Assembly (NCBI RefSeq): GCF_963921235.1
Contig: NC_086097.1
Span: 108,068,001-108,132,000 of the forward strand
Origin: Mobula hypostoma
Lineage: Eukaryota
DNA: 64,000 nucleotides
Direction: 5' to 3'
In this document: positions 243-25,376 of the stretch, in pieces
Numbering within the stretch: the first letter of the stretch is position 1
Layout: every line of letters starts with the position of its first letter
Notes under the pieces: model-generated
What the model saw: only the letters and a program-made list of their open reading frames with translations
Databases searched by the model: none
Told to the model about the DNA's origin: nothing
Translations under genes and position numbers: made by a program

Positions 243-2600
243 TTCCTGAAAGGTGGGAGCTTTGCCTCAGCAGCATTCCTTGGCTGCTGGTAAACCTCCT
301 GTGACTTGCTAAAGTGGCCGTAATTGATGCGTAAATCTAGGGTATGAATGCCGTCAAATCATTGAATGACACGGATGAAACATTTCATTTTTCAACTACA
401 CTTTTCATGAGTGCTCCTGGCTACAAAGATTATAGGATAACAATCAGCAGATGGTTGCTCTTCTATCTTGCCGACTGAATGTTTAATAGTATAACAATTA
501 AAAAAAAATTAAAATGTGAACAAATATTTAAGTTGTGCGAGTGGTAACGTCATGCCAACAAGTACTCAATTGCAGGCAATATGTTACATAGTTTTGTGAA
601 ACTACTGAAAATATAGTGCTTAGGGCACACATTTAATTTTCAATGTTATTTTCTATACATTTTAAGTGTACTTAAATTTGGACATGGAGTGCTTCTTTTA
701 TTGGGTGAACTTGTACTTGAAGTATTTGTAGGTTCTGTTGTCTAAATAGTGAAGTGTAATAATGTAAATATGCAAAGCACCTGGTTAAACAGGATTTATC
801 ATTATAATGATGGCAATATGGTCAGAACTGCCAGGCTTTGCTTCATTATTTAGAAATACAATCAACACAGAATCAGTGATTTGACAGGCAATGCTTTTGA
901 TTTAAGGGGGAAAAAAACTGTTATAGTTTGTTTGACTAGAAACAGCTGAGTTTTTAGTGTCAATCTATTTCATAGTTATTGGAGAACATCTCCCCAGTCT
1001 AGCTTGGAAAAAAATATCAACAGGTAGATGTTTTAAAATTGCAACTCATTTCTAAGTTTTGTATGCTACTTCAACAATTGTCTTTTATCCTGTATGCAGT
1101 GTACATTTTCAGTATAATAATTAAAGTGTGAATTCTAGTCTTTGCATTCCACTTCAGCTTTGGGATCTGGGAACTACTTAACATGGTCAGCTTAGCAACA
1201 TGCTTCATTTACAGTTTTTCTGGTCATCTTTCAGATAGAACCCTATTCCTAATCTACTCAAAATGACATTCAGGCCAATGGTTCTTTGAGTTTCTAATTT
1301 TATTTATTTGTACAAAGAACTTTTTGGAGGATAACTATGTTCAGTTAATTATGTTCAGTTAGTGTGCTTATCACCGATTCACATTTCTTGCTGAAATGAT
1401 TTTGTATTGGATAATTTTTACTACCACTTCTATGAACAGTCTTTTCGGTACTCAGTGTTAAAACTAGAGATTGAATTAACGAGCAAAAGAACCTATCTGA
1501 CTTATTTATTTATTTTAAAATTTATTTCTCTCATATATGAGCATGGCTTTTCACCTTTCTTTTTCAAAATTATTCAGTAGTATTAATTTTGCATCTCATG
1601 AATCAACAAGTTAGTGTGATGTTCGTTTTGAGCAAAGCAAATTTGAAGCCAGTTAAGCACATTATCAAGAAACTATTGAACATTTTGGTTTCCTTTAATA
1701 GACCTGACTCAGTTAATTAATTTTAAGTCATGGCAAAGTTGATACTGACACAGCAGTTGCCTAAGTTCAGGTTTAAATTATGTGGTGACATTGAGTAAGT
1801 GGAGCTTTAGTCTGCCTCCATCATGCCCTGTATTTGGAATAGGAATGATGTGTATTTGTGCTGAATGACAGAAGATTGAAAATGTCCAGTGAAATACAGT
1901 ATATACTTGAGAAGGAAGCCATTAACCTATTGTGTTCATACTGGTCAAAACCTGACTTTAAATTAACACAACTTCCCAACCATCAGTAAGTAAATTTAGG
2001 GCTCTTCAAAAGGCAAGTCAGGTATTTGATAAATCTGGTGAGGTTTACCGCAGTGATTCCTTCAAGAAGAAAGGCTAGACATGCTTCCACTTCAGGAAAG
2101 AGATTGTGAGTGCGCACAAAAGGTGGACTAAACTGCAAATGTATAGATGTCTCAGCAGGAAACATGGGAGAAACAAGACATTGTTCTTCAATAATAACCT
2201 GCTTCAATGTGAGAGGCCTGTGCTAAACACTGAATATGAAAAACTGTATGCAAATAAACACAGTGTCTGTGTGTTGTTAGCCATCTGACCATACTGTTTG
2301 CATGTTGGCCTTGCGTATGTGTGCACACGTTTGTGTGTGTGTGTGCATAGTGATGGAGGAACCGGTCTCCTTCTGTAGTAGGGCGCTGGTCTTGGCCAGC
2401 AGAATGCATGGAGGTCTTGCATCATGCAGAAGAATTTTTGACCTAGTGCATTATTGCTTTTTGAAACGGCTGTTGCTTATATTTAAAGTGTAATTGTATT
2501 GTAGAATACTCTTATTGACACTTTTTACTTTTAACCATGCACAATAACATTTTTACACAAGTGCATTACTGAACCATTTGTATATTATGTTGTGTAAATC
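243..2600 (+). other. Possible terminal exon plus long AT-rich 3' UTR of an unidentified host gene
   Basis: A branch-point-like ctgac and pyrimidine tract (ttttcccccccatttag) end at 242. Short reading frames then close quickly (FLKGGSFASAAFLGCW*, stop at 291-293). About 2.4 kb of TE-free AT-rich sequence follows, with AATAAA at 2253. Gene not recognised. Confidence 0.3.
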
Positions 2601-2615
2601 TAATGCAGGGATATC

Positions 2616-2905
2616 ATAGAACATGGAACAGTGCAGCACAGGAACAGGCCCTTCAGCCCACAACTAATCCCTCCTACCTACACAATGTCCATATCCCTCC
2701 ATTTCCCTCATATTCACGTATATATCTAAACATCCCTTAAAAGCCTCTATTATATTGGCCTCTACCACCACCCCAGGCATTGTAATCTAGGAATACACCG
2801 TTATGAGTTTTTTAAGAAAACTTATTCCTCACACCCCCTTTGAACCTACCCCCTCTCACCTTCAATGCATGTCCTCTGGTATTAGACATTACAACCCTGA
2901 GGGCA
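2616..2905 (-). mobile_element. CR1 LINE 3' end fragment
   Basis: Has the catagaacatggaacag...caggcccttcagcccaca tail shared with other CR1 3' ends in the window. Confidence 0.7.
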
Positions 2906-3050
2906 AAAATACTCCCTGAATTACATTTTCGTATATTACAATTTGACAGATGCATGTAAGTGCAATTTTTAAAAAGAATCCTCATTTGATTGCTTGAGAA
3001 AGGAAAGAGTAATGATTGGGGAAAAAAAGAGTTTGGAAGCTTGATACTGT

Positions 3051-3758
3051 TGTAGTGCCCCCCCCCACCCGGCCAGCCTCAGGGTCACTTGGCTCGCTGT
3101 CGTCGAGGGAAACAGCCCTCGGCCCCACCAAACTGGGTAATTCGTTTGTGTGGATGCTGTGTGATGTACCCCACCCCACCCAAATAACAGACAATACACC
3201 AGATACGATTAAATGATTTACAGTTTATAGATATTACTGGAACTATATAATTAATAGAGAATAAAATATAAAAGGAAAATAAAAGGCACCACACTTATCA
3301 AAGTTCAATCTTTTCGTGCACAAACAGTTGGAGCTCAGGACCCTTCTTCTTCAGCCTGCGACCCCTCGGACCACCTCGACCGGCCGCCTGGGACCAACAA
3401 CAGTGGTCAACCAGGTGCTCCACACAAGTCCGTCTTTGTCTCCTCTCCTCACTGAACGCCCTGCTTGGGGTCTGACCCCGTTAGCGGACATCACAGCACC
3501 TGGTCCATCCTCTGTCGCTCTCTCCTGCCTTTACCCCCAAAACCCTGCGCATAGAATATCTTCAGATACACCAAAAACATAACAACTATCCCAATTGGTT
3601 CGTAATATATTCTTATCCCACTCTAACCCAAAACAAGCTGCTAGCGCAAGAACTTTCTCAGTGTTTAACATAACAAAGAAGCATTCCCAAGTATAGCATA
3701 ACAAAGAAGCCATTTTAATTAGCCTACGCAGTAACATAAGAGACAAAACCCCCTTACA
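3051..3758 (-). repeat. 3' LTR of the Gypsy element
   Basis: TG...CA termini. Aligns end to end with 6582-7287 and sits next to the polypurine tract. Confidence 0.95.
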
Positions 3759-3770
3759 CTCTCCCCCGCC
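3759..3770 (-). promoter_or_regulatory. Polypurine tract (GGCGGGGGAGAG)
   Basis: Purine-rich run immediately 5' of the 3' LTR on the minus strand. Confidence 0.85.
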
Positions 3771-4247
3771 AAACAAAGTCATATCCTCATGACTTCTAAA
3801 TAACTCGCCAACCAGTCCTGCAGACACACAACAAACACATACACAGATACACACAGTGACAGTGCTCCCCAAACAGTGGACCTTACGGACACTACATAGG
3901 CCAACCTATCTGGGAGCTTCTTAATCCTCCGAGACCTCCGTACCCCCCCCCGCCCCACCTAAACCCTAAAGGCTCAGACACTACTAGGGATACCTCGGGC
4001 CTGCCTGCCAACTGCTCTGTCACTCAGGCCACCATTCCAACTCGGAGCCCCCAGTCCTGTGTCCGGGGCCACGCTTCTTTTCCTTCCTGGTCCTACTGCA
4101 ACTCAGACTGCCCACAGCTAACCCTCCCCACTACACCTGACTCAGTGGGAGAAGGGCCAAAGGTATCTTCCTCAATCACAGGGAAGTTAGCAAAAGGCAC
4201 TACATGTCCAGCACATCATCCTTCGAATTCGTATCCTTCCTCATTCC

Positions 4248-5000
4248 CTCGCTCGGTAGCTGCTGTTTGAGTTTCTCCAAACTGAAACATTTAGCCGGGG
4301 CTACCCCTTCAGCTTCCTGCAGTCGAGACGTCAGCTTCTTCGGGGACTCCTTCAACTCTCGTCACAGCCTCAGTAGTTCTGACTCAGGGTTCTGGGCCAT
4401 CTCAATCTGGGACGCAGTTACCCCACCAGCTTCTTCCACCCTGACCTGACAAGCAGCAGTTAAAGAATGTTCAGCCTCCGGTTGTTTCTTCCTGAGGACG
4501 TTTTCCAGGTCAACTTTCAGTTTTTCCACTTCATTTAAACTCGCGATAGTCATCTTCAGGTTCCTTTCAAGCGTCCGCCTCCCTTTTCTGAGATCTGTCC
4601 TCCATTTCTTCACCTCCTCGGGAGTGTAGTCAAACTCCCCTCCCTGGGCTCTCGGTTTTCTGTTGGCCTTAGTCAGAACACTTCCTTGATCTTCCCCAAC
4701 TTGTAAATCTTCCAATCTTTTCTGGATCGACGTCTTGAGTTTCTGCTGATCCCTTCGAAGGTGGGTCATTGTTTCTTCTCACTGGATTAATTCATCAGTA
4801 CTTGACCACAGTGTCGGCTCAGAATTCCATTGCTCCTTCTCCACAGCAACGAGTGTGAATTCCAAGTCTGCAATGGTCGTCCCACAAGTGCGGCACTCAG
4901 TCTCCGGCCGGCATTTCTGAGCACTCAGTTCAGCGGTGCAAATCCCCTCTCTTCCCTGTGTCTCATTCAGATTGACGACCTGGGTTTCCATCCCCAGGTC
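4248..5000 (-). pseudogene. Captured, intronless, internally deleted sarcomeric myosin heavy-chain rod (S2/LMM) fragment, MYH16-like
   Basis: Translates to DLGMETQVVNLNE...AELSAQKCRPETEC...IADLEFTLVAVEKE...QKRLEDLQVGEDQGSVLTKAN...NLKMTIASLNEVEKLKVDLENVLRKK...RVEEAGGVTASQIEM...ELLRL*RELKES...KKLTSRLQEAE...AKCFSLEKLKQQL. This is collinear with recalled class II myosin motifs (DLELTLAKVEKEK, LDDLQAEEDKVNTLTK, RLEEAGGATSAQIEM, KLAQRLQEAEE, AKCSSLEKTKQRL). Confidence 0.85.
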
Positions 5001-5950
5001 CACCACCGTCTGTTCCAACACCAGGAAGTTCAACTGGTATGTCGGGTCAATTTTCTCACATTGCACCAAACTCCTCCGGCCAAAAACTCCTCCACATTTG
5101 ACACTTTGCTTCTGTCGCCCGGGCTGAGCCACTCGCCTCGCTTCATAGTCCCCCCAGGCGAATCCAAGCTCCAGGCGGTCATCCACATACGCCAAAACTC
5201 CACACACCTTCATTTCCCCCATGGTCTTCCTCATGCCCCGCGGGAAGGATGCAGGGGCTCCGGATATGCCCTTGGGCATCTTTTTGGATCGGAAGAATCC
5301 TAGGGAACTATAGAGAACTGATAACGTCCGTCGTCAGCTCAACAGCTGCACTCCTCAGGATCTGGCAACATCCACTCCTCAGATCCAACACATTAAACCA
5401 CGTCGCATAATCCACACACACGCTGCCTTCATCTTCCACGCCGCCAGGGTCCAGTTGCTGCGACCTCTCTCTCACTGAGGTGTCTTCAGCGGTCAACTCC
5501 CCTCCCTCGTGGTAGTTCGGAGCATCTACTAAGAGGGTCTCACCCTCAGCTACTTTCCCCAAGCCATACCACCGCTGGGTCTCGTTTAAATTCGGTACCA
5601 GCTCAAGGCTACTACACACGTCCTCAGAAGCAACTCGACACACAGGGTGCCCAGACAATTCCCCCATGAACTCCAGGGTCATTAACATCGTCTTCTAGAT
5701 AACTACTGCCACTAGTACCCAAAGTCTCTGGTGCCCTTGCGGTTGTCAAGGGTAAATGCTTCAGACACTGGTTGTAAAACGAACTGTACAACAACTTGAC
5801 CTGCGCCCCGAAGTCAAGGATGGATTTCGCATCGCTTCCCTCTATCCGTAATGACACCCTGGGGCGTGGTCCCTCTAAACCTTCAGGAATAGGGTCTTTT
5901 CCTTTCGGAAGTTCATTGGTACATTGCTGGGAACGTGCTTCCCCAGAGAA
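5001..5950 (-). pseudogene. Deleted and degenerate Gypsy pol: aspartic protease, RT and RNase H remnants
   Basis: Protease: IPEGLEGP...[41 protein letters not shown] and LAYVDD. RNase H motif (SRSL..SEKNYP.HKLEFLALKWAVVD) seen as RRSLVQCEKIDPTYQLNFLVLEQTVVD. Confidence 0.85.
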
Positions 5951-6450
5951 CCCAAGCCGTTCCCCCACTGGGCCTCCACTAAGTTTCCCGACACCTCTCT
6001 GATCAGCTGAACAACTGGAGGAGGGGCTGATCCCCTGAAATGATCCCCCTGGCACTGCAAGCAATTTAGCCGCCCTCCTAGCCAGAGAAGACACACTGAA
6101 AACTTTCCCCCTTCTTTCAAATAACTGACAGCTGTCACTACGGTGTAAGTGAACCTGACAGCTCTAACACTGTCACCAGCCCGCCTACTTAAACTTTCAA
6201 CCAATCCCTGTCGCTCTCCCTCAACCGAGCACTGCCACTCATCTAACAACTGAGAGATCCGCTCCGCCCACGTCTCGCTAGTCTCCGCCCCTCTTGGGGT
6301 GGACACTATCCCAAACGCCAGGCGGAGCCTGCCGGAGCTGGAACATTTATTCACAGTCCCTACCTCCAAATCAGACCACTCTTTCCTCTCTCTCCCAACA
6401 GCATGGACAGCCCCAATTTCCACCTCCAACTCGTCAATGCTAGTCTGAAC
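5950..6450 (-). pseudogene. PNMA/Ma-like gag remnant
   Basis: [47 protein letters not shown] resembles the PNMA-type Gypsy capsid region. Confidence 0.8.
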
Positions 6451-6560
6451 TCGAACAAAGACCGCACCCACCACGCATACAGCAATAACCAGCAAATAAC
6501 CCACAGAGACACATATTACTGATTTAAACAGGGCACCCACACAGCATACCAGTAGATCCA

Positions 6561-6581
6561 ATCCCGGACAAAAGCCCACAA
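6561..6581 (-). promoter_or_regulatory. Primer-binding site, degenerate tRNA-Pro type
   Basis: The minus strand reads TTGTGGGCTTTTGTCCGGGAT directly after the 5' LTR, compared with canonical TGGGGGCTCGTCCGGGAT. Confidence 0.75.
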
Positions 6582-7287
6582 TGTAGTCCCCCACCCCCCA
6601 CCCGGCCAGCCTCAGGGTCGCTCGGCTCGCTGTTGTCTAGGGAAACAGCCCTCGGCCCCGCCAAACTGGGTAATTAGTTTGTGTCGATGCCGTGTGATGT
6701 ACCCCACCCCACCCAAATAACAGACAATACACCAGATACCATTAAATGATTTACAGTTTATAGATATTACTGGAACTATATAATTAATAGAGAATAAAAT
6801 GTAAAGGAAAATAAAAGGCGCCACACTTATCAAAGTTCAATCTCTTTGTGCACAAACAGTTGGAGCTCAGGACCCTTCTTCACCCTGCGACCCCTTGGAC
6901 CACCTCGACCGGCTGCCTGGGACCAACGACGGTGGTCAACCAGACGCTCCACACAAGTCCGTCTCCGTCTCCTCTCCTCGCTGACCCCCCTGCTCAGGGT
7001 CTGACCCTCTTAGCAGACATCACAGCACCTGGTCCATCCTCTGTCTCTCTGTCCCGCCTTCTCCCCCAAAACCCCGCGCATACAATATCTTCAGATACAC
7101 CAAAAACATAACAACTATCCCAATTGGTTCGTAACATATTCTTATCACGCTCTAACCCAAAACAAGCTGCTAGCGCAAGAACTTCCTCAGCGTTTAACAT
7201 AACAAAGAAGCATTCCCAAGTATAACATAACAAAGAAGCCATTTTAATTAGCTTGCGCAGTAACATAAAAGACGAAACCCCCTTACA
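6582..7287 (-). repeat. 5' LTR of the Gypsy element
   Basis: Direct repeat of 3051-3758, roughly 5-10% diverged by eye, with many CpG transitions. Confidence 0.95.
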
Positions 7288-7649
7288 CTGTGAATGTAGG
7301 GTCTTTAGTAATGAGACTTGAAAATTTATGCCAAAATTGTCTGCATTGTTCTTGGTGAGGAAGGGAGTCTTCAGCTGCAGGAAGGTTTTGTTGGACAGAA
7401 TGCAGTAGGGACAAATGGAATTCAATCAAGAATAGTAAGGGAATATGTTTGGGAAGAGTGTGATGAGGTAAGGTACTGAAAAGTAGAGAATTAAGGGGAC
7501 CCAGGACTAGATATACACACATCTGCTTCTGAGAGAAGCAGAATAGGTGTTTACGGCATACAGTATGGGGAAAGTTGGCTTGATTGATGTGACCTACTGC
7601 AGAAGAACAACTAAGTATTTTTCTGTTCGGTAAACACAAAAGAAAATCC

Positions 7650-7990
7650 CTCTTTCCTCTATTCACCACTCTGACCTTTTACCTCTTCTCACCTGCCTAT
7701 TACTTCACCCTGGGCCCCCTCCTCCTATGGTGCACTCTCCTCTCCTATCAGATTCTTTTCCCAGCCCTTGACCTTTCTCACCCACTTGGCTTCACCTATC
7801 ACCTTTTAGCTTGCCTCCTTCCCCTCCCCCTCACCTTTTTATTTTGGCATCTTCACCCTTCCTTCTCAGGGGGAAGAAGGGTCTCGGCCTGAAATATCAC
7901 CTGTTTATTTACTTCCATTGATGCTGCTGAGTTCCTCCAGCATTTTCTGTGTGTTGCTTTTGATTTCCAGCATCTGCAGAATTTCTTATG
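7650..7990 (+). mobile_element. Penelope-like pLTR/3' end, decayed
   Basis: Pyrimidine-rich tract followed by gaagggtctcggcctgaaa...gagttcctccagcattt...ccagcatctgcag, as in the GIY-YIG-linked copy near 52360. Confidence 0.7.
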
Positions 7991-9559
7991 TTAGCAACTA
8001 AGCTGTATTTCATTACTGAAAACACCAGGGAAGCCACAGGTTGAAAGCTGTGTACAGTTCACCAAAGTAACAAAAAGCTCTGAAAGCATTGGAGAGGAGG
8101 CAGGGCCGAATTGAGAATTACAGTGATAAGAGAAGATGGTCTCTGCTGCAATTATTTTGTTTGCAGGAATGGAGATGTGAGTTTTAATTGGTGTGTGTAC
8201 ACAGGGGGTGAATAGAAAAGAACGCATGCTGAAAAATAAGTCAGCAATTTTGTGGAATTGAGAATGGACTTAACCTCAATCAAGCAAAGTTCACCTGCAA
8301 GCACCCAGCAGGAACTGTGACTTCTGAAATTCCAGTTGTGAAATCTGGAAATGTGATTCTAGATTTGAAGTTCTGTGACGCGATTCTGGAAATTTTCCCC
8401 CAAATGTGCATAATGCACCAGTTTGCAACTGGAGTGCAATTCTTACTGCATTTTCCCAGAATGTGGCAATACTTGTGCACTCGGTCTCCAGTCACTTGTC
8501 ATTACTAACCCTGTTTTCTATGAAGCTCTCACTTAACAAGTTAGTGCTCAAATTGTATTCTTGTCTTCACTGAGATCTGTGACTTCATGTGACCTCAAAA
8601 TGCAACCTCAGAGATTTGCTGAACTCTGGGTCACTCTTGGGTTCCCAGTTTAGGGATCATTCCAATCTCCTGCGGAATCTGCCACATTGTGGTTTGCTTC
8701 TCACCACGTGTGTACTCCACAAGCGCATTCCATAGTCACAAAGCAGAGACTTCCTCTCCTTTACATGTAGCTCAGCGGAGGAGTGTGCATCCAGGCCCTC
8801 GTGAAGGTGTGACTGGGAACCTCCTGGCAGGGGTGCATTTGAAGTTTTCCCTGCCACCCCCCCCCTCAGGTGCATAAGGAAACTGCCTCTTGTGGGTTCT
8901 TCACCACCCTTTCTGGGACCCTCTGATCCCTGTTAGAAGTGTCAGAATTAATCTTGGAAAACCCAAAACAATTGCTCTATGGACTGTGCAATGAAGGTTT
9001 TGCTTCAAATGCAAACGATGTTATGGTGACTCACGATTCTATTTTGAAATGAATGCAATGGGACTAAGGAGTAAGAGAGCAGAATGTTCTCTGAAGTAAT
9101 CCTAATGATGTCACGACTCTGACTTTTCTTTTTGAATGAAATACTCAATACAACTCACTTCCAGATAGTTGCAGGGGTTGGAGTTGAAGGTGTACAAGCT
9201 CATCCCAAGGTAGTCTAATCAGGTTAGCTATGCACTACTTCTGACCAATAACAAATTATATGGATCATATTCCACCTAAAACGTAACAAAGCTTTAATTT
9301 GTATTGCTCCAAAAATCCTCATTTGTTTATGTTTGTGGCATTTGTTGTGGCTTTAGCCACAAATCCACAATTTCATTATTCACATCTAGTAAGGTGGAGA
9401 TGTTCCAGGGGCATGGCCTTATAGTGATCACACGAAGGGAGTTACGTTGACTGTAGTAACCATGGAGGGGCACCTCTGTTGTCTGCCACAGCCATAACCA
9501 GGGTTCTTCTTAACTGCCTCCAGCTCGTGTTGGAAGAACTGCTCGCAGAATGACAGAGC

Positions 9560-12728: not shown

Positions 12729-12871
12729 ATTGAGGAAAGAAAATCCCAAGTTAAGATTCAAGATTCAAAGATTCAAAAAACTTTATTGTCATTCTAACCG
12801 TACATCGGCTCTGCAGGGCAGAATGAGACAGCGTTCCTCAGGAGCAGTGCAATCATAACATAACAAATGCA

Positions 12872-14740
12872 TTGAAACCAAATGCGCAAAGCATATTTAA
12901 CTATCGGGTTAGAGACCTGCTTAAGACGTTTCGAATCAAAAGGGAGAGAGGAGCCTAAAATAGAACCCAGTGTATAACCCTGAACCGATTGTAATTCCAA
13001 TGCTACCCATTTAGGAATAGATAGTATGTCCTGGTCAAGTAACCAAAATTTCATATGTCGAATATTAATAGCCCAATAATAGAATCTAAAGTTAGGTAAT
13101 GCTAAACCTCCATCTCTCTTAGCTTTCTGTAAATGTATTTTACCCAGTCTCGGATTCTTATTCTGCCAAATAAGTGAAGAAATTTTAGAGTCAACTTTAT
13201 CAAAAAAAGATTTAGGAACGAAAATTGGTAATGCCTGAAACACATATAAAAATTTTGGCAAAAAAAACATCTTAACCGCATTAATACGACCAATCAAAGT
13301 TAAATATAAAGGAAACCATTTAGATGAAAGTTGAGTAATATGGTCTATTAATGGTAAAAAGTTAGTCTTAAATAAATCTTTGTATTTACAAGTAATTTTA
13401 ATCCCAAGATATGAAAAGTAATTATTAATCAATTTAAATGGAAATTTATAATATAAGGGAAGATGTTTATTAATCGGAAAAAGTTCACTCTTACTAAGAT
13501 TTAATTTATAACCTGAGAAAAGACCAAATTGTGCTAATAACTCTAAAACAGCAGGAATAGATCTCTCAGGATTAGAGATATATAAAAGTAAATCATCAGC
13601 ATAGAGTGATAATTTATGGGACTTTAATCCCCGAGTTATCCCAGTAATATTTGAAGATTCTCGAATAGCAATTGCAAGAGGTTCTAATGCAATATCAAAT
13701 AATAGGGGACTAAGAGGACAGCCTTGTCGAGTACCACGAAAGAGAGGAAAAAAAGGTGAGTTTAAAGAGTTAGTGCGAACCGAGGCTACAGGGGAGTGAT
13801 ATAACAGTTTAATCCAGGATATAAATCTCAAGCTAAAATTAAACATTTCAAGCACCTTAAATAAATAAGGCCATTCTACTCTATCAAAAGCTTTCTCGGC
13901 ATCTAAAGAAATAACACACTCAGGAACATTTTGTGAGGGAGTATAAACGATATTTAACAATGTACGAATATTATAAAAAGAGTAACGACCTTTAATAAAA
14001 CCCGTTTGGTCCTCCGAAATAATAGAAGGAAGTACTTTTTCTAGTCTATTTGCTAATAACTTAGAAAAAACTTTAGAATCAACATTTAATAAAGATATTG
14101 GTCTATAAGATGCACATTGAGCAGGGTCTTTATCCTTCTTTAGTATTAGAGAAATTGATGCTCTATTAAAAGATTCAGGAAGTTTACCAAGTTTCAAAGA
14201 AGCCTCAAAAACCCTACCGAGCCAAGGAATCAATAAAGAAGCAAAACATTTATAAAATTCAACGGTAAACCCATCAGGGTCAGGAGCTTTCCCCAGATTC
14301 ATAGAAAAAATAACATTCTTAATCTCATCCATTGTAATGGAAGTATCTAATAAGGAAGACATATCCTGTGAAATCTGAGGGAAGTCTAACTTATCTAAAA
14401 AATCATTCATATATTTAGAATCTCGAGGAGACTCTGATTGATATAAAGAAGAATAAAAATCACAAAAGGTTTGATTAATCCCCACATGATCCAGTATCAA
14501 TCGATCATTTTGGTTATAAATCTGATTGATTTGAGATTTAACATAATTAGATTTCAATTGATTAGCCAGCAGCTTGCCAATTTTGTCACTGTGAACATAA
14601 AAGTCACTTCTTGTTTTCTTTAATTGGTTTACAATCGAGGACGAGAGTAGTAAACTGTGTTCCATTTGAAGTTCAGTTCTTTGTTTATATAACTCCTCAG
14701 AAGGAGCCATAACATATTTCTTATCAATTTCTTTAATCAA
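12872..14740 (-). CDS. L1 ORF2 reverse transcriptase region (inverted segment, uninterrupted frame)
   Basis: KAPDPDGF, SYRPISLLNVDSK, SLDAEKAFDRVEW, GTRQGCPLSPLLF, YADD and YLGI motifs. Homology ends at WFQ (12872). Confidence 0.9.
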
Positions 14741-14745
14741 TTTCT

Positions 14746-15705
14746 TTTCAATTCAGAAAATTTTTTGATCTTAATCAATTCGGGTTAGCGATTCCTATTT
14801 TAGGTAACATATTTTTTCCTCCCTCTTTTACGGATCGCGCTTTTCAAACTTGGAAGACTAAGGGTATTTTACGGTTTTTGGATTTATTTTTAGATGGTTC
14901 CCTTATGTCTTTTGAACAATTATCTAATAAATATAACTTATCAAGAATACATTTTTTTAGATATTTACAAGTTAGAAATTTCCTAAGTACTATACTTTCT
15001 TCCTTTCCAATGCTTCCTCCTACATATATTTTAGATTCGATAATTAACCTTAATCCATGTCAGAAAGGTGCATCGGCTATGATTTATAATATTATTATGA
15101 AACTTAGGAAAGCTCCATTTGATAAGATTAGGGTAGATTGGGAACAGGAATTGGGGCTTACCATTTCTGTGGATGATTGGGGGCAGATTTTACAATTAGT
15201 TAATACTTCCTCTATTTGTGCTAAACATTCCCTAATTCAATTTAAAGTGGTTCATAGAGCACATATGTCCAAAGATAAGTTAGCGCGTTTTTACTCGCAT
15301 ATTAATCCTTTCTGTGATAGATGTTCGGGGCAGATAGCCTCTTTAACTCATATGTTTTGGTCTTGCCCTGCTTTGGAAACTTTTTGGAGAGATATTTTCA
15401 ATATTATTTCTAAGGTATTAAATATAGATATCTCTCCTCACCCTATTACTGCTATCTTTGGACTACCTAAAATTTCTAGTAATCTTTCCCCTTCAGCCCG
15501 TAGAATGATTGCATTTCTTACTTTAATGGCGAAAAGATGTATTTTACAACATTGGAAAGAGCTTAATGCTCCAACTACCTTTTTTTGGTTTTCTCAGACG
15601 ATTTTATGTTTGAATTTGGAGAAAATTAGAAGTAACCTTTATGATTCTTCATTTAAATTTGAACAGATTTGGGGACCTTTTATTCGATATTTTCATTTAA
15701 TGTAA
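14746..15705 (+). CDS. L1 ORF2 C-terminal region with CCHC zinc knuckle
   Basis: The frame resumes at FQFRKFF, includes CDRCSGQIASLTHMFWSC, and stops at 15705. Confidence 0.9.
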   Translation, partial: FQFRKFFDLNQFGLAIPILGNIFFPPSFTDRAFQTWKTKGILRFLDLFLDGSLMSFEQLSNKYNLSRIHFFRYLQVRNFLSTILSSFPMLPPTYILDSIINLNPCQKGASAMIYNIIMKLRKAPFDKIRVDWEQELGLTISVDDWGQILQLVNTSSICAKHSLIQFKVVHRAHMSKDKLARFYSHINPFCDRCSGQIASLTHMFWSCPALETFWRDIFNIISKVLNIDISPHPITAIFGLPKISSNLSPSARRMIAFLTLMAKRCILQHWKELNAPTTFFWFSQTILCLNLEKIRSNLYDSSFKFEQIWGPFIRYFHLM

Positions 15706-17449
15706 TATTTACCCTTCTTGTTTTTTTTTCACTGTTTTTAATGGAGGTCGGGATTGAGGACGTGATTTTAAGTTTAACTCTGTTTGGTTTCAAGTTAGCC
15801 CATTGCTTTGCTTTGCTTTTAGTTAGCTGCACGGTGGGTTTTTTTTGGGGTTTTTTTTTTTCTTTTTTTTCCATTGATATATATAAAATTTAGTATACTA
15901 TTATGTTATCTTGGTTTCTTATGTTTAAATTACATTGTTTGTAGTAATTTCTTTTTGGTATTGATATCTTTTGGAATTTTATTATACTTTAACATTGTAT
16001 TAATGTTTATATGGCTTACCTTTTTTGTATACTTACTCAATAAAAAGATTTAAAAAGAAAGAAAAGACAAATGCAACACTAAATAATAAACATAACAGTA
16101 AATAGTAAAACACAACAGCCACATGCCAGTTAAATCAGTTATAAGTGTCCAATGCAAGTTAGAAGTGTCCAAAGCAGAGTCAGGTGGAGCAGCTATTTAG
16201 CAGTCTGACTGCCTGTGGGAGGAAGTTGTTTAGTAGCCTTGTGGTTTTAGTTTTGATGCTCCTGTAACGTTTGCCTGATGGCAGAAGAACAAACAGTTCA
16301 TGGAGAGGGTGTGAGGGGTCTAATGATGTACCGTGTCTTCTGGAGGCATCGACTCTGAAAGAGGTCTTGGACAGAAGGTAGGGAGACCCCAATAACCTTC
16401 TCTGCTCCCCTAACCACCCTCTGCAAGGCTTTTTTGTCGACAGCACTGCAGCTGGAGTACCAGGTTGTGATGCAAAAGGTCAGCACACTCTCAACCACAC
16501 CTCTGTAGAATGTAGTTAAGATGTTAGTGGGGAGTGATGCTTGTTTAAGCTTCCTCAGAAAATGCAATCTCTGCTGGGCCCATTTCACAATCCCAGTGGT
16601 GTTCCTGGACCAGGTGAGATTGTCTGAGATCTGCACCCCAAGGAACTTGATGTTTTCCACTCTCTCCACTGTGGAGCCGCTGATGCTGAGGGGTGTGTGC
16701 TCAGGCTGAGACCGTCTGAAATCGACGATCATCTCCTTGGTTTTGGTGACATTAAGCATCAAGTTGTTATCCCTGCACCAGCTCCTAGGTGTTTGACCTC
16801 CTCCCTGTACATAGTTTCATCATTTTTGCTGATGAGCCCCACCACTGTGGTATCATCTGCAAATTTAATGATCAGGTTCTCCTTGAATCTGGCTGCACAG
16901 TCATCTGTTAGCAGTGTAAACAGCAATGGGCTAAGCACACAGCCTTGCGGGGATCCAGTGCTCAGTGTGATGGAGTCAGAGATGTCAGATGTTACTGATA
17001 CCTTGCATCAGAGCTGACCTGTTCCGAAACAAACCAAAGGCTCTGGTGATCAGAATTTGTTGAGTTCAGTATTGAATCCAATGTGCTAATCAAAAGATGA
17101 AGTGCTGCTTAACAAGGTTGTGTTGGACTTTGAACAGTTCAAGTTGTGAAAGACTAAGAAGTCAGAGTGGGAGTACACTGACAGGCAGCTAGAACTTAAG
17201 GTCACTCTGGTGGGTCATTACACAATGAATTGGGTCATTGTCCTCTGTACGGCAAATAGTTTAAAGTGCAGTGCAAGTAGAGCTTGTAGCATAAGCTAAA
17301 ACAAATTCTACTAATGAGAAGGAGAATAATTTCTCCAGGAAAGTGGAATGAGTGAAAATTGGTTGATAACAAATGCTGTACAAAATCATTCAATGTCAGT
17401 TACTGCACTGTGATTGCCAGAAGATTGATAGCAATTAGAGTGGAACTCC

Positions 17450-18200
17450 ATGGCAATGGTGGGAGAAGCCTCACTTTCTGGGGGGAGAAAGGGGGCATCT
17501 CAGTCCTGGAATGGAGTGCATCATCATGGGAACAGATGCAGTGGAGACTGTAGAACTGAGAGAAGACAGTAATGCCATTGCAAGTGACATGGTGGGAAGA
17601 GGTATAGTCAAAGTAACTAGGAGTCAGTAGGTTTCTAAAAGATAATCTGTCTCCAGAGATGGAGACACAGATGTCAAGAACAGGGAGAGAGATGTCGAGA
17701 TGGATCAAGTGAATTTGTGGACGGAGCAGAAGTTGGCGGATTAACGAGTGCCGTACTGGTGTAGGAGGCAGCACCAATATCGTCGTCAATGTAGTGGAGA
17801 AAGAGCTGGGGATTGTTGCCATTGTAGGTTTGGAACATGGATTGTTCTATGTAGCCAGCTGAAAAGGCAGGCATAGATTGGGACCATGTGAGTGCCCATG
17901 GGTTCTCAAGAGAAAATGGGAACAACTGAAAGAAAAGTTGCAGTTCTGTCAGGTGGAGGAGGATGGTGGTGGTGGGGAACTGTTTGGGTCCATTATCAAG
18001 AAAGTGGAGAAACTTGAGACCTTCCTGATGGCGGTGGAAGTGTATAGGGAGTCGATGAAAATGGTGAAAATGAAGTGGTCAGGGCCGGGAGACTGAGTTT
18101 TTTGAAGTGATGGAGTCCATTTGAAGTGTCACGGATGTAGGTGGGGAGGGACTGAATCAAGGGGAAGAATATAGAGCTGAGGTAACAAGGACAGGATTTT
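17450..18200 (-). mobile_element. Penelope-like element RT remnant
   Basis: MGT.M.P.YACLF.GYIEQ, FLHYIDD, PVLDICVSISGDRL and YFDYTSSH motifs. Confidence 0.75.
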
Positions 18201-18949
18201 TTTTTGACACTATCAACAGAAAAAGACTTTTTCGTGTCAAATGTAAAATACAAAATAATTGATTGCGTATGTATTCACTTCCTTCAAGTCAGTAGTTAGT
18301 AGAAGCACCTTTCACAACAATTACAGCCCTGAGTCTGTGTAGGTAGGTCTCTATCAGCTTTGCACATCTGGACACTGCAATTTTTCCCCATTCTTTTTTA
18401 AAAAACTGCTCAAGCTCTGTCAGATTGCATGGGGATCGTGAGTGAACAGCCCTTTTTAAGTCCAGCCACAAATTCTCAATTTGATTGAGGTCTGGACTCT
18501 GACTTGGCCAGGACAAGAACTTTGTTGCTTTTAAGCCATTCCTGTGTTTCAGAGTCTCCCACATGCCTTCTGACAAACTCTAGGCAAGATATCATGTGAA
18601 TGTTTTTTCAACAGTGACCTTTCCTTTGCCAATCTCTTATACAGCTGTGATTGGTGAAGCCACCCGGGCGGCAGTTGTTGTATGCTGTCTCTCCCACTGA
18701 AGCTTGTATCTCCTCCAATGTTGTCATAGGTCTCTTGGTGACTTCCCTTACTAGTCCCCTCCTTGCATGGTCACTCAGTTTTTGACAGCTGTGCCATATT
18801 CTTCCAATTTTTTGATGATTCACTTAACTATACTCCAAGGGATATTCAGTGACTTGAAAATTTTCTTGTATCCCTCTCCGGACTTGTGCTTTTCAATAAT
18901 CTTTTTGTGCAGTTGCTTGAGAGTGTTCTTTGGTTTCTTGGTGTAGCTT

Positions 18950-21015
18950 TTAAGACCATTTGGCCCATCGAGTCTACTCTGCCATTCAATCATGGCTGAT
19001 CCCTTTTTATTCCTCCTCAACCCCGGTTCCTGGCCTTCTCCCTGCACCCTTTGATGCCATGTCCAATCAAGCACCTATCAATCTCTGCCTCAAATGCACC
19101 CAACATCCTGGCCTCCACAGCTGCATGTGGCAACAAATTCCATAAAATTCATCACCCTTTGGCTAAAGAAATTTCTCAACATCTGTTTTGAAAGGGCACC
19201 CATCTATCCTGAGGCTGTGCCCTCTTGTCCTAGACTCTCCCACCATGGGAAACGTCCTTTCCACATCTACTCTGTCTAGGCCTTTCAACATTCGAAAGGT
19301 TTCAATGAGATCCCCCCACTCATCCTTTTGAATTTCAGCGAGTACATTCCCAGAGCTATCAAAGCTTCGTTTCATTCATGGAATCATCCTTGTGAACCTT
19401 CTCTGGACCCTCTCCAATGCCAGCACATCTTTTCTAAGGTGAGGCCTCACCAGTGCCTTATGAAGCCTCAGCATCACATCTTTACTCTTGTATTCTAGAC
19501 CACTTGAACTGAATGATAATATGGCATTTGCCTTCCTCACCACCAGCTCAACCTGCAAGTTAACTTTCATGGTGTTCTGCACAAGGACCCCCAAGTCGCT
19601 CTGCATCTCAGATTCCTGGAATTTCTCCCCGTCTAGAAAATAGTCCGCACGTTTATTTCTACTAACAAAGTGCATGACCATGTATTTTCCAACATTGTAT
19701 TTCATTTGCCACTTTCTTGCTCATTCTCCTAATCTGTCTATGTCCTTCTGCATTCTACCTGTTTCCTCAACACTACTTGCCCCTCCACCAATCTTCGTAT
19801 CATCTGCAAACTTGGCAACAAAGCCATCTATTCCATCATCAAAATCATTTATATACAGCATTAAAAGAAGCGGCCCCAACACCGACCCCTATGGAACACC
19901 ACTAGTCACTGGCAGCCAACCAGAAAAGCATCCTTTTCCATTCTGATATGTCCCATTCTCATTCTGATATGTCTATCCACGGCCTCCTCTACTTTAAAGT
20001 TGAAGCCACACTCAGGTTGGAGGAACAACACCTTATATTCCATCTGGGTAGCCTCCAACCTGATGGCATGAACATTGAGTTCTCTCATTTCCGCTACTGC
20101 CTCACCTCCCTTTTTGTACCCCATCCGTTATTTATTTATATACACATATTTTCTTTCTTTCTTTCTTTCTCTCTCTCTCTCTCTCTCTCTCCTTTTTCTC
20201 CCTCTGGCCGTCTCACTGTACCCCTTGCCCATCCTCTGGGTTCCCCCCCCCTTTTCTTTCTCCCTGGGCCCCCTGTCCCACGATCCTCTCATATCCCTTT
20301 ACCAATCACCTGTCCAGCTCTTGGCTCCATCCCTCCCCCTCCTGTCTTCTCCTATCATTTTGGATCTCCCCCTCCCCCTCCCACTTTCAAATCCCTTACT
20401 AGCTCTTCTTTCAGTTAGTCCTGACGAAGGGTCTCGGCCCAAAACGACGACTGTACCTCTTCTTATAGATGCTGCCTGGCCTGCTGTGTTCACCAGCAAA
20501 TTTTATGTGTGTTGCTTGAAGGATCCTTTCATTCCCACTTGCTGCCTCCTATCAATCAGCCAATGCTCTAACCAGGTTAGTAACTTCCCTGTAATACCAT
20601 GGGCTCTTAACTTGCTAAGCAGCCTCATGTGTCACACCTTCTGGAAGTCCAAATATACAACATCCACTACATCCCCTTTATCTATGTTACTTGTAATCTC
20701 CTCAAAGAATTCCCACCAGTTCGTCAGGCAGGATTTTCCCTGAAGGAAACCATGCTGACTTTGTACTATCTTGTCCTGTGTCACCAAGTACTCCAACACC
20801 TCGTCCTTAACAATTGACTCTAACGTCTTCCTAACCACTGAGGTCAGGCTAACTGGTCCACAATTTCCTTTCAGCTGCCTTTCTCCTTTCTTAAAAATTT
20901 TCAGTTTTCTAGTCCTCTGGCACCATGCCAGAGTCCAATGATTTTTGGAAGATCATTTCTAATGCCACCACAATCTCTAACACTATCTCTTTCAGAGCCC
21001 TAGGGCGCAGTTCAT
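18950..21015 (-). mobile_element. CR1 LINE, RT plus 3' UTR, decayed
   Basis: SQHGFLQGKSCLTN, DVVYLDFQK, KFADD and LERVQRRFTRMIP motifs. Confidence 0.9.
19938..20518 (+). mobile_element. Penelope 3' fragment (GIY-YIG C-terminus plus pLTR) nested in CR1
   Basis: SHSHSDMSIHGLLY...RLEEQHLIFHLGSLQPDGMNIEFS, with a mutated hammerhead at 20417-20452. Confidence 0.85.
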
Positions 21016-21019
21016 CTGG

Positions 21020-21780
21020 ACCATTACCTAGAGGCTCACACCTTCCGGTCCCCTGGGTCACAGACTGACCATTGTCTTGAGATTATAACTGTCGCGTTCC
21101 CTAGGTCACTGAGTGACCATTACCTTGAGATGCTTGCTGTCTGGACCCCTGGGTCACAGACTGGCAATTACCTTGAGACGCACACTGTCCGGTTCCCTGG
21201 GTCACAGACTGAATATTGTCTTGAGATGCACACTGATCGGTTCCCTGGGTCACAGACTGAATATTGTCTTGAGATGCACACTGTCCGGTTCCCTGGGTCA
21301 CAGATGGAATATTGTCTTGAGTTGCATACTGTACGGTCCACTGGGTCTCAGACTGACAATTGCCTTGAGACACACACTTTCCAGTTCCCTGGATCACTGA
21401 CTGACCATTGCCTTGAGACACACACCGTTCGGTCCTGTGGATCACAGACTGACCATTGCCTTGAGATGCAGACTGTTCTGTCCCTTGGGACACAGACTGA
21501 TCATTGTCTTGAGACATACACTGTCCGGTTCCCTAGGTCACAGACTGGCCAATACCTTGAGACACACTCTGTCTGGTCCCATGGATCACAAACAGACCAT
21601 TGCCTTGTGATATACTCTTTCTGGTCCCCTGGATCACTGACTGACCATTATCTCGAGACGCACACTGTCCAGTCCCCTGGGTCACAGACTGACCATTACT
21701 GGGAGACGGATACTGTCTGGTCCCCTGGGTCGCAGATTGACCATTACCTTGTGATCTATACTGCCCTGATCCCTGGATCC
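21020..21780. repeat. 48-bp minisatellite, ~16 diverged units
   Basis: Unit is approximately ccctgggtcacagactgaccattgtcttgagatgcacactgtccggtt, head to tail with no spacers. Confidence 0.9.
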
Positions 21781-21809
21781 CATCCCATCCCATAGACGAT
21801 GAGTGACAT

Positions 21810-22315
21810 GTAACAACTATTCAAGTCATTGGCAAAGTCTCACTTAGAGAGTTTTGTGTGCAGTTCTAATTGCTAATCTATAGGAAGGACATGATTAAGC
21901 TGTAAAGAGTGTAGAGGAGAATGACGAGTATGTTACTGTTGGGTTTTGTGTTATATGGATAGACTAGGACAGTTTGCCCTGTACATAAAATAATAGGGTG
22001 TAGATGGGGGTTGATGGTCACAGTCATTTTCCCTGGGTAGGGGAATCTCAGAGCCGAGGGCAGACATTTAAAAGGGACCGAAGGTGCATTTTTTCACATG
22101 GAAGGTGATGGTTATAAATTTCATGCAGTCTGAGGAGGCTGCAAACACAAATAAAATTACAAAGTTGAGAAGATTTGTGCTGGAGAAAGGATAGAAGTCG
22201 TCTATGAGGGAAGTTTGGGAAAGCTGCAGGGAAATGGGGCAAGCTCAAAGACCTTCAGATCAGCATGAATTAGTTGGGCCAAAGGCCCTGTTACCAGGCT
22301 GTAATGTACTGGTTT
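21810..22315 (+). mobile_element. Old CR1 3' fragment
   Basis: Degenerate coding remnants of RPHLEYCVQFW and LERVQRR, followed by 3' UTR. Confidence 0.6.
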
Positions 22316-22624
22316 ATTCCACCAAGAATCACATAGTTAATCACAATCACAATGCCCACAGAGACAGAGATTGTTGGTCAATGGTTAGACCATAAGATAT
22401 AGGAGCAGAATTTTTACAGTCATCCCCACTCCCCTGCCTTCTCCCCATACCCTTTGATGCCCTGGCTAATCAAGAACTTATCTATCTCTGTCAATGACTT
22501 GGCCTCCACAGCCACTCCTGGCAACAAATTCCACAGATTTACCACCCTCTGACTAAAGTAATTTCTCCGCATCTCTGTTCTAAATGGATGTCCTTCAATC
22601 CTGAAGTTTTGTCCTCCTTGTCCT

Positions 22625-23419
22625 TGTTACAAACCCACAGGTTTCGTTTACTGAGGCTGTTTCTTTAAGAGCGCCTGAGTGAGGTGAGACTATGATGTCA
22701 GTCACAGGCTGAAGGAGTTTGCTTCAGACTTTTACACGGACAGAGAGGGAGAGACTTTCAGTCATGGGAGAGGGAGAGGAAGAGGGAGAACGAACGAGAA
22801 CCAGCTGTCGGGATTTCGGCTGGTCACTGCGATGGTTTGGGACTCTTTTAAGCCCAAAAGATTGGGTTAAACATCAGCACACAATGCACAACGAATGTGT
22901 GACTGTCACTTTATATAATCCATAGGAGTGGATTTTGGGATATCTTGTGGGACCACTTGTGTAGCCCTTGCCTGGGTATGTTGTGTGGTAACCACTGGAA
23001 GACGATATTCCTGTGACAGGTCACTTTTGGTGATAATTAGTACGTGGATTTGGAACATCATGGCGGACCAGATCTACGGCGACTGTTGTCTCGTTTTACC
23101 AGCGTGGAACCTGTGGAATACTTTGTACTTGCCTTTCCTCTGTTTCACCCTGGATTACAAATATCTCTCTCCCATCATTTATTCCGTGGATTATTGAACT
23201 TTCCTACTTTACCATCTTAAGACTTCAAGCCTTATTCCCCAAAGCTCGGTAGTTTGGGAGTTATATTTATACACATATATGCACATAACACTGTTAACTT
23301 TTGTTTATCTTGGTTTGAGTTACTATATTATAAGTAGATGCTAATAAAAAGTGTTTTTATCGTTAAAACCTGACTCAGTGTGAAATCTCTTGCTGCTACT
23401 TTGTTTCTAAAAGATTACA
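22625..23419 (+). mobile_element. Solo LTR (795 bp)
   Basis: TGTTAC...ATTACA termini. 5-bp TSD GTCCT at 22620-22624 and 23420-23424 interrupts a CR1. AATAAA near 23343. Confidence 0.85.
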
Positions 23420-24117
23420 GTCCTAGACTCCCCTACCATGGGAAATAACTTCACCATATTTAAACTGTTCAGGCCTTTTAACATTTGGAATGATTCTATG
23501 AGATCCCTCCTCATTCTCCTGAACTCCAGGGAATGTAATTTCCCTCCAGGGAGCTGTAATTTCCTCAAAAAAAATTGCAGGAAACCATGCTGGCTTTGAC
23601 CTATCTTGCCATCTGCCTCCAGGTACACTGTAATCTCATCCCTAACAATCGATTCCAACAACTTTCCAACCACTGATGTCAGGCTAACAGGTCTATAGTT
23701 TCCTTTCTGCTGCTTCCCACCCTTCTTAAATAGCGGAATAATATTTGCAATTTTCCAGTCATCCGGTACAATGCCAGAATCTATCGACTCTTGAAAGATC
23801 ATTATTAAAGCTTCTGCAATCTCTCCAGCTACTTCTTTCAGAACCTGAGGGTGCATTCCATCAGGTCCAGGAGATTTATCCACCTTCAGACCATTAAGCT
23901 TCCTGAGCACCTTCTCAGTCGTGATTTTCACTGCACATACTTCACTTCCCTGACACTCTTGAATGTCTGGTATACTGCAGATGTCTTCCACTGTGAAGAC
24001 TGATGCAAAACACGCATTCAGTTCACCTGCCGTCACTGCGTCTCTCATTACAATATCTCCAGCATCATTTTCTATTCGTCCTATATCTACCCTCTACTCT
24101 TTTACCCTTTATATACC

Positions 24118-24482
24118 CTTTCGAATGTTGAAAGGCATGGACAGAGTGGATGTGGCAAAGTTGTTTCCCATGATGGGGGAGTTTAGTACAAGAGGGCATG
24201 ACTTAAGGATTGAAGGACGCCCATTCAGAACAGAAATGCGAAAACATTTTTTTAGCCAGAGGGTGGTGAATCTATGGAATTTGTTGCCACGGGCAGCAGT
24301 GGAGGCCAAGTCATTATTTAAGGCAGAGATTGATAGGTATCTGAGTAGCCAGGGCATCAAAGGTTATGGTGAAAAGTTGGGGGAGTGGGACTAAATGGAA
24401 GAATGGATCAGCTCATGATAAAATGGCAGAGCAGACTCGATGGGCCGAATGGCTGACTTCTGCTCCTTTGTCTTATGGTCTT
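24118..24482 (+). mobile_element. CR1 3' fragment nested antisense inside another CR1
   Basis: FRMLKGMDRVDV..LFP..STRGH..FFSQRVVNLWN, with a tcttatggtctt tail. Confidence 0.85.
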
Positions 24483-25038: not shown

Positions 25039-25074
25039 AGTCAACGTTTCGGGCCGAGACCCTTCGTCGGGACT
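25039..25074 (-). ncRNA. Minimal type I hammerhead ribozyme motif (core variant CCGACGA)
   Basis: The minus strand reads AGTC-CCGACGA-AGGGTCTCGGCCC-GAAACGTT-GACT. Confidence 0.6.
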
Positions 25075-25340: not shown

Positions 25341-25376
25341 AGTCCTGACGAAGGGTCTCGGCCCGAAACGTCAACT
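25341..25376 (+). ncRNA. Minimal type I hammerhead ribozyme motif
   Basis: AGTC-CTGACGA-AGGGTCTCGGCCC-GAAACGTC-AACT. Confidence 0.75.

What the first reader, a model, noticed from the sequence alone, without database searches (positions are those of the whole stretch)
3051..7287. Myosin-bearing element probably belongs to a mobile non-autonomous family, not a one-off
Seen: all cis signals are intact (TG..CA LTRs, PBS, PPT, perfect 4-bp TSD), but the internal region is only ~2.8 kb, with no integrase and a shredded RT. The LTRs differ by only about 5-10% by eye, whereas the myosin, gag and pol remnants look far more diverged from their relatives. Inference: the capture long predates this insertion, so the chimera was replicated in trans by an autonomous PNMA-gag Gypsy and myosin pseudo-fragments should be scattered genome-wide. 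These could be a source of small RNAs or of spurious 'myosin-like' gene annotations.
Basis: inference. Interest (0 to 1): 0.75.

Follow-up and report, generated by a model that had tools for sequence, protein, structure and literature searches.

The report
Ray retrotransposon family carrying myosin fragment
This is one decayed copy of an abundant, crippled jumping-gene family in stingrays and devil rays that long ago swapped its copying enzymes for an intron-free piece of a muscle myosin gene and spread it around the genome, oddly keeping the reading frame open while the protein sequence decayed.

Summary
Confirmed. The window holds a 4237-bp minus-strand Gypsy element: LTRs of 708/706 bp that differ by 6.8%, TG..CA ends, a CTGT target-site duplication, a PPT and a degenerate PBS. 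Decayed gag, protease and RT remnants run in frame into an intron-free, internally deleted myosin rod piece; there is no RNase H or integrase. It is a family, not a one-off. Summed contig depth over the myosin piece is about 2,500x and 5,400x the unique flank in two runs (inflated; hundreds to low thousands of copies), four coded organisms hold it, and 16 RefSeq models of four ray species carry the piece, 5 named as myosins. This scan noted the family before at 9 other places of this genome. The kind is known (LTR-mediated retrocopies, maize Bs1). Two additions: (1) the donor is of the MYH16 lineage but perhaps not the annotated ray MYH16 (unresolved); (2) the frame seems to have stayed open in the copying lineage while the protein decayed (no inherited stop against 3-10 expected; P 0.05 to <0.001). 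This suggests selection for translation in cis, as in mouse IAP 1-delta-1. The helper element and small RNAs were not found or tested.

The parts
3047..3050 (.). target-site duplication, left copy (CTGT)
3051..3758 (-). 3' LTR (708 bp, TG..CA)
   Evidence: 93.2% identical to the 5' LTR
3759..3770 (-). polypurine tract
3771..4199 (-). 3' internal region after the end of the RT-myosin frame; shared with other family copies
   Evidence: depth; RefSeq models P0054, P0061 and P0072 align into it
4248..4343 (-). myosin piece 3 (about residues 1380-1412 of ray MYH16)
4344..4442 (-). myosin piece 2 (about residues 1140-1171 of ray MYH16); holds a stop at 4362-4364 that the RefSeq family models lack
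4446..5072 (-). myosin piece 1 (the part from 4988 down matches about residues 907-1093 of ray MYH16), intron-free; holds a stop at 4779-4781 that the RefSeq family models lack; a subfamily lacks 120 bp at 4813-4932
5080..5430 (-). reverse-transcriptase remnant (truncated after the YxDD-like motif), fused in frame to the myosin piece
   Evidence: RVT_1 E 0.018; sister models P0061 E 1.3e-6, P0069 E 1.8e-4
5430..5690 (-). protease-RT linker remnant
   Evidence: aligns to the N-terminus of P0056, P0064 and P0065
5691..5989 (-). aspartic-protease remnant, in the -1 frame relative to gag; GGGAAAC slippery-type heptamer at 5989-5983
   Evidence: (lead, 0.88); the frameshift role of the heptamer is recalled, not tested
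5878..6582 (-). internally deleted PNMA-type gag remnant; frame open but no ATG before its residue 223
6561..6581 (-). degenerate primer-binding site (tRNA-Pro-like; motif recalled)
6582..7287 (-). 5' LTR (706 bp, TG..CA)
7288..7291 (.). target-site duplication, right copy (CTGT)

Best explanation
One dead copy of a non-autonomous Ty3/Gypsy (PNMA-gag) LTR retrotransposon family of myliobatiform rays. Steps: (1, inferred) RT switched template onto a co-packaged, spliced mRNA of an MYH16-lineage myosin, replacing the RT C-terminus, RNase H and integrase. (2, shown as structure; mechanism inferred) Further internal deletions shrank gag and the cargo, two of them at repeated peptide motifs of the rod (R-x-E-E, E-L-E-E), as homology-guided template switching would give. 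(3, shown) The chimera multiplied to hundreds or low thousands of copies in several sublineages across Mobulidae and Dasyatidae. (4, inferred from the missing integrase together with the perfect TSD) It was copied in trans by an autonomous relative. (5, shown) This copy inserted, then decayed neutrally. The myosin no longer works as a myosin. The frame that carries it probably stayed open in the copying lineage because translating the element RNA helps it to be copied in cis; this last step is the least certain (about 0.4).
For: Structure, TSD and LTR distance. No RNase H or integrase. Median summed depth over six myosin bins is 2,486x the unique flank in run X1 and 5,408x in X3. In small runs X15 and X17 the unique flank has no contig, while single contigs on the myosin piece reach depth 145 and 52. 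20 of 23 listed runs, from 4 coded organisms and 7 studies, hold 20-51% of the internal words. 16 RefSeq models from 4 ray species carry the piece on at least 13 different contigs, none of them the contig of that species' full-length myosin-16-like gene; 6 of the 16 also carry the RT remnant in front. The 120-bp subfamily deletion shows both in contigs and in 5 RefSeq models. Intron-free: the frame runs through positions where unnamed genomic MYH16-type ORFs P0077 and P0078 begin and end their myosin match. Loss of myosin function: 53 of 126 strongly conserved positions changed, prolines 3.3% against 0% in host MYH16. The 2 stops in this copy fit the 1.3-1.6 expected after insertion.
Against: No genome was held, so no other copy was read with its LTRs and TSD. 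Summed contig depth is not a copy number (tool warning) and is inflated by overlapping short contigs. The helper was not found. Microhomology at the RT/myosin junction could not be tested without both parent DNAs; the 120-bp deletion has only 1 base of microhomology. The open-frame signal falls to P about 0.045 on the shortest branch with the spectrum estimated from the data.
Confidence: 0.9

Rival explanations
1. Same family, but the myosin piece is purely neutral cargo: its open frame reflects homology-guided in-frame deletions, a mutation spectrum poor in stop-making changes, and the fact that only open frames become gene models.
For: Two large deletions join repeated rod motifs, so they are in frame by construction (alignment). 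The observed spectrum is poor in G>T and A>T, which lowers the expected stops to 3.1-6.0. RefSeq models are chosen for open frames. The amino-acid sequence is unconstrained.
Against: No inherited stop in 241 columns against 3.1-10.3 expected over the models tried (P 0.05 to 3e-5). A second lineage (P0058/P0059, stem 0.40) is also open (2.9 expected, P 0.057). Only 2 stops in 793 codons of the homologous frames against about 6% in the other frames. The 120-bp subfamily deletion is in frame with only 1 base of microhomology.
Confidence: 0.5
2. The chimeric protein (protease/RT remnant-myosin coiled coil) has a function for the element or the host, e.g. a domesticated copy or a coiled-coil tether in the particle.
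For: Open frames up to 450 aa in natural gene models (P0065). Unchecked scan notes report sibling families whose cargo is also coiled-coil (RABEP1, SH3KBP1).
Against: 42% of the strongly conserved rod positions changed and prolines entered. Lineages lost different parts of the cargo. RT remnants of different lineages are only 39-64% identical to this copy. No single conserved orthologous copy was seen among the 16 models.
Confidence: 0.1
3. A one-off: capture or decay happened only at this locus.
For: No second copy in the window; no relative in the viral or metagenome contigs.
Against:: thousands-fold depth, four organisms, 16 gene models on many contigs.
Confidence: 0.01

Closest known systems
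LTR-mediated retrocopies / pseudo-LTR retrotransposons of animals (Tan et al. 2016, PMC5131818; abstract, section 6 and Discussion read)
   Same: Partial spliced host mRNA inside LTR-retrotransposon sequence, sense strand, in frame; the paper states such chimeras can act as non-autonomous elements and be copied again.
   Different: In the sections read, the cases are young retrocopies with at most a few secondary copies; here hundreds or more, several sublineages, two ray families, and a heavily decayed cargo. Rays are not among the species named in the sections read; supplements not seen.
Maize Bs1 (as described in the Discussion of PMC5131818)
   Same: Gene-capturing LTR element with secondary retropositions that share switch points; part of its cargo is in frame.
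   Different: 1-5 copies, three donor genes, reported to give a hybrid protein; here one donor and far more copies, with no sign of protein constraint.
Mouse IAP 1-delta-1 subtype (passages in PMC6466679 and PMC7411935; the primary paper, Saito et al. 2008, was not held and not read)
   Same: Non-autonomous, internally deleted, keeps an open fusion frame whose product is reported to help retrotransposition in cis while Gag/Pol come in trans.
   Different: An ERV with a gag-pol fusion and no host cargo; the cis effect was shown by experiment there and is only inferred here.
Crocodilian ERVs with captured KIT-ligand or nectin3 mRNA (PMC4299795, passages read)
   Same: Vertebrate germ-line retroelement lineage that amplified with a captured host mRNA across species.
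   Different: ERVs, few copies, cargo under purifying selection; here a Gypsy element whose cargo is unconstrained in amino-acid sequence.
Vertebrate MYH16 (masticatory myosin) (PMC6402096 and PMC11050549, passages read)
   Same: The cargo groups with MYH16 (100/98).
   Different: It falls outside the clade of annotated gnathostome MYH16 in the best tree, together with the Narcine model XP_069785580; not settled by AU tests.

Membership tests
Ty3/Gypsy LTR retrotransposon (non-autonomous) | two LTRs with TG..CA ends and a short TSD | tested here: met
Ty3/Gypsy LTR retrotransposon (non-autonomous) | PBS and PPT | tested here: inconclusive
   PPT clear; PBS degenerate against a recalled tRNA-Pro motif
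Ty3/Gypsy LTR retrotransposon (non-autonomous) | gag-PR-RT order with PR before RT (not the Copia order) | tested here: met
   PNMA gag, protease-like region, RVT_1 remnant in that order; the protease call is a lead only
Ty3/Gypsy LTR retrotransposon (non-autonomous) | lacks intact RT/RNase H/integrase yet has many copies | tested here: met
Ty3/Gypsy LTR retrotransposon (non-autonomous) | an autonomous partner sharing LTR ends and PBS | not testable with these tools
   no genome; higher depth on part of the LTR is only a hint
LTR-mediated retrocopy (Tan et al. 2016) | host sequence is intron-free and partial, flanked by LTR-element sequence | tested here: met
LTR-mediated retrocopy (Tan et al. 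2016) | no poly(A) tail or TSD around the cargo itself | tested here: met
   no A-run at the cargo's 3' end in the sequence read; no direct repeat flanks the cargo among repeats of 20 bases or more; shorter TSDs not tested
LTR-mediated retrocopy (Tan et al. 2016) | microsimilarity at the element/mRNA switch points | not testable with these tools
   DNA of neither parent was available
LTR-mediated retrocopy (Tan et al. 2016) | co-transcribed from the LTR | not tested
   no RNA run was laid
MYH16 lineage (donor) | groups with MYH16 rather than MYH7/fast myosins | tested here: met
   100/98, 98/97; grouping with MYH7/fast types rejected, AU p 0.033
annotated ray MYH16 orthologue (donor) | nests with batoid MYH16 | tested here: inconclusive
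   not in the best trees; AU p 0.080, 0.067 with all chondrichthyan MYH16, 0.024 for the Narcine model alone; long branches

The most novel reading that the evidence does not exclude
The family's copying lineage was selected to keep one long frame translatable, whatever it encodes: captured myosin mRNA serves as stop-free filler that lets a helper-dependent element be translated (and so stabilised or packaged in cis). In-frame capture of host coding sequence would then be an advantage to defective elements, which could explain repeated high-copy gene capture in ray genomes. The cargo may also preserve a fossil of an MYH16-sister myosin gene that is unannotated or lost in rays.
Probability: 0.3. 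Interest if true: 0.72.

Novelty: new member of a known kind. Interest (0 to 1): 0.5.

Why it matters
It is a vertebrate germ-line case of host-gene capture that amplified far beyond the few copies described for Bs1 or the animal retrocopies in the sections of Tan et al. read here. It contaminates ray annotations: 5 of 16 models are named as myosins and one as a glutathione S-transferase isoform. With hundreds of dated copies, it makes a general question testable: whether defective LTR elements are selected to stay translatable in cis, independent of the protein. It may also flag a second MYH16-lineage gene in batoids.

Tried and rejected
No whole genome was held, so the genome-wide BLASTN and the TSD count could not be run. 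No relative of the 450-aa model in metagenome contigs (0 of 61 pattern matches) or viral contigs (0 of 3). No tRNA gene in the window; no Rfam match in 2400-8000 at E<=1. Sequence look-ups of earlier scan notes found nothing, and a word look-up for open-frame selection found 0 notes. The first MAFFT alignment misplaced the third myosin block and was redone block by block. P0063 (54 aa, same 90% cluster as P0056) does not match the window and was dropped before counting 16 models. Literature: the search myosin + LTR retrotransposon + captured + shark gave 4 papers, 3 listed, none on this family by listing; manta ray + LTR/Gypsy terms showed nothing on rays among the 15 listed of 5,584; MYH16 searches and the passages read named no second MYH16-lineage gene in rays. 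The library lacks most subscription papers and repeat databases, so this does not show that the family is undescribed. Absolute dating was rejected: no ray substitution rate was measured or read. Depth peaks on the LTR were not used as copy numbers.
Full report
Observation. The stretch 3051-7287 is an LTR element on the minus strand. Its LTRs are 3051-3758 and 6582-7287, with TG..CA ends, 48 differences in 706 aligned sites (6.8%, K2P 7.2%; 20 of the 48 are CpG transitions) and a perfect CTGT duplication on both sides. A polypurine tract abuts the 3' LTR; the PBS is degenerate against the tRNA-Pro motif as I recall it. The 2823-bp interior holds a PNMA-type gag remnant (E 7.5e-6) and an RT remnant (E 0.018); none of the 8 ORFs scanned hit RNase H or integrase. 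The region between them looks like a retroviral-type aspartic protease by language-model features (0.88, a lead only). A GGGAAAC heptamer stands at 5989, where the frame changes from gag to protease. The RT remnant runs in frame into about 275 codons of sarcomeric myosin rod. The rest of the window is mostly LINE fragments and has no second copy.

Is it a family? Yes. No genome was held, so I used public runs and proteins. 20 of 23 listed runs, from 4 coded organisms and 7 studies, hold 20-51% of the sampled words of the interior. I laid 4 of those runs on 2082-6581 (flank, one LTR, interior). Summed contig depth on the unique flank is 9.3-9.7 in X1 and 28-32 in X3 (two of the three flank bins; the third reads 102 and 75); over the six myosin bins it is 12,800-30,500 and 42,000-194,000, median ratios 2,486 and 5,408. 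The tool warns that this sum is no copy number, and overlapping short contigs inflate it. A more careful floor comes from the small runs X15 and X17: their unique flank has no contig at all, yet single contigs on the myosin piece have depth 145 and 52, and at 3% divergence only 39% of copies share a given 31-mer. I read this as hundreds to low thousands of copies. X1 also holds the flank without differences and a contig across the flank/LTR junction, so this insertion exists in that sample; it may be the window's own source and is no independent support.

Protein searches agree. 9 of 749 candidates hit the myosin piece at E<=0.001, all ray gene models. Cluster members and the full HMMER search (16 hits) bring the total to 16 RefSeq proteins: Mobula birostris 6, M. 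hypostoma 6, Hemitrygon akajei 2, Hypanus sabinus 2 (P0063 dropped as unrelated). They lie on at least 13 contigs of different length, none of them the contig of the species' full-length myosin-16-like gene. Six also carry the RT remnant before the myosin. Five are named as myosins. One (XP_072103657) is named glutathione S-transferase theta-2 isoform X1, although residues 1-448 of 450 align to this element and no Pfam family hits it. Unchecked notes of this scan report the same family at 9 other places of this genome and sibling families with SUDS3, RABEP1 or SH3KBP1 cargo; these are leads, not support.

Order of events. The window copy differs by 3.0% from the highest-depth contigs of organisms C and D (25 in 825 bases), close to half the LTR-LTR distance, so it left a master much like the family majority and then decayed. 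Its LTRs differ by 3.2% at non-CpG sites, the same as the flank differs between the window and organism B (19 in 594), so the insertion is about as old as that split or older. The cargo is only 43-44% identical to ray MYH16 and is shared by Mobulidae and Dasyatidae, whose split I recall as Late Cretaceous (recalled, not checked). The capture is thus much older than this insertion. The cargo is three pieces of rod (about residues 907-1093, 1140-1171 and 1380-1412 of ray MYH16). It runs through positions where unnamed genomic MYH16-type ORFs start and stop matching (P0077, P0078), so it is intron-free. The two large deletions join repeated motifs of the rod, as homology-guided template switching would. 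A subfamily lacks a further 120 bp, seen in contigs of X1 and X3 and in 5 models.

Donor. In a 281-column tree of 34 rows, the element pieces and a 225-aa Narcine model (XP_069785580) form one clade (100/100), sister to all 13 MYH16 rows (joint 100/98; MYH16 alone 95/99). In the core block the window piece matches the Narcine model at 32 of 45 positions and ray MYH16 at 24 of 42. Grouping with MYH7/fast myosins is rejected (AU p 0.033). Grouping with batoid MYH16 is not (p 0.080; all chondrichthyan MYH16 p 0.067), though it is for the Narcine model alone (p 0.024), where MYH16 monophyly itself is unsupported. No full-length protein of that type was among the 198 long myosins fetched; that search covered 488-2000 residues and listed the best 120 of 2397 hits. 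So the donor is of the MYH16 lineage and may be a second, unannotated or lost paralogue; long branches leave this open. Whether the Narcine model is that gene or an early copy of the element is unknown.

How it works. With no integrase but a perfect TSD and many copies, the family must have been copied in trans (inference); the helper was not found. Part of the LTR (3132-3431) has 5-10 times the depth of another part and of the interior, a hint that it is shared with other families. The cargo does not act as myosin: 53 of 126 positions conserved in both MYH16 and MYH7/fast myosins changed, and prolines rose from 0 to 3.3%. Yet the frames are open: 2 stops in 793 codons of the homologous frames, against about 6% in the other frames. 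Both stops are absent from the family models and fit the 1.3-1.6 expected after insertion. Along the copying lineage (0.31-0.60 changes per site), neutral change would have given 4.9-10.3 stops under generic spectra (P(0) 0.007 to 3e-5; 2.9-5.7 and P 0.05-0.003 with a strong A>G/T>C bias), or 3.1-6.0 under the spectrum estimated from 32 unambiguous changes (P 0.045-0.002). The longest path may include host-gene history. A dasyatid lineage is open too (2.9 expected, P 0.057), but gene models are chosen for open frames. The signal is suggestive, not proven. A precedent exists: the non-autonomous mouse IAP 1-delta-1 subtype keeps an open gag-pol fusion that is reported to aid retrotransposition in cis (passages of PMC6466679 and PMC7411935; primary paper not seen). 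Against a simple version of this, the window's gag frame has no ATG before residue 223.

Comparison and verdict. The kind is known: LTR-mediated retrocopies that can go on as non-autonomous elements (Tan et al. 2016, PMC5131818; abstract, section 6 and Discussion read, supplements not seen), maize Bs1 (as described there), and crocodilian ERVs with captured mRNAs (PMC4299795, passages). My searches listed no paper on this ray family, but the library is partial and repeat databases were not searchable. The open-frame signal and the uncertain donor are the parts worth following up. Interest 0.5.

Noticed in passing
RefSeq XP_072103657.1 (P0065): Named 'glutathione S-transferase theta-2 isoform X1' in Mobula birostris, but 448 of 450 residues align to this element and no Pfam family hits it; perhaps an element copy inside or merged with the GSTT2 model.
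   Followed up: partly
RefSeq XP_069785580.1 (P0070, Narcine bancroftii): A 225-aa 'myosin-6-like isoform X4' that is the closest non-myliobatiform relative of the cargo, has internal deletions, and lies on another contig than Narcine myosin-16-like; a candidate second MYH16-lineage gene or an early element copy.
   Followed up: partly
window 3132-3431: This part of the LTR has 5-10 times the summed depth of 3432-3581 and of the interior in run X1, suggesting that it is shared with other LTR families or solo LTRs.
   Followed up: no
RefSeq XP_072921390.1 (P0062, Hemitrygon): Gene model in which a short myosin-element piece sits between unrelated sequence; possible exonisation or a mis-merged model.
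   Followed up: no
window 21019-21776: 48-bp tandem array (15.3 copies, 77% matches) that stays open as a 263-aa frame on the + strand; only weak Pfam hits below the cut-off.
   Followed up: partly
window 12794-15705 (-/+): Long non-LTR retrotransposon remnant: a 652-aa RT frame on the minus strand (RVT_1 E 7e-39) next to a 322-aa frame on the plus strand at 14737-15705, which may be an inverted piece of a similar element.
   Followed up: partly
window 59176-59698: 39/76-bp tandem array (about 13.6 copies of 39 bp, 90% matches) beside LINE fragments.
   Followed up: no
window 2615-2900: High-copy repeat fragment just left of the element, with depth of tens of thousands in the laid runs; looks like a LINE or SINE end (recalled, not tested).
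   Followed up: no
same genome, scan notes e1-7814349, e1-7791549, e1-7808223: Unchecked notes describe sibling Gypsy families with SUDS3, RABEP1 or SH3KBP1 cargo in place of pol; repeated capture in one genome would be a pattern worth a joint study.
   Followed up: no
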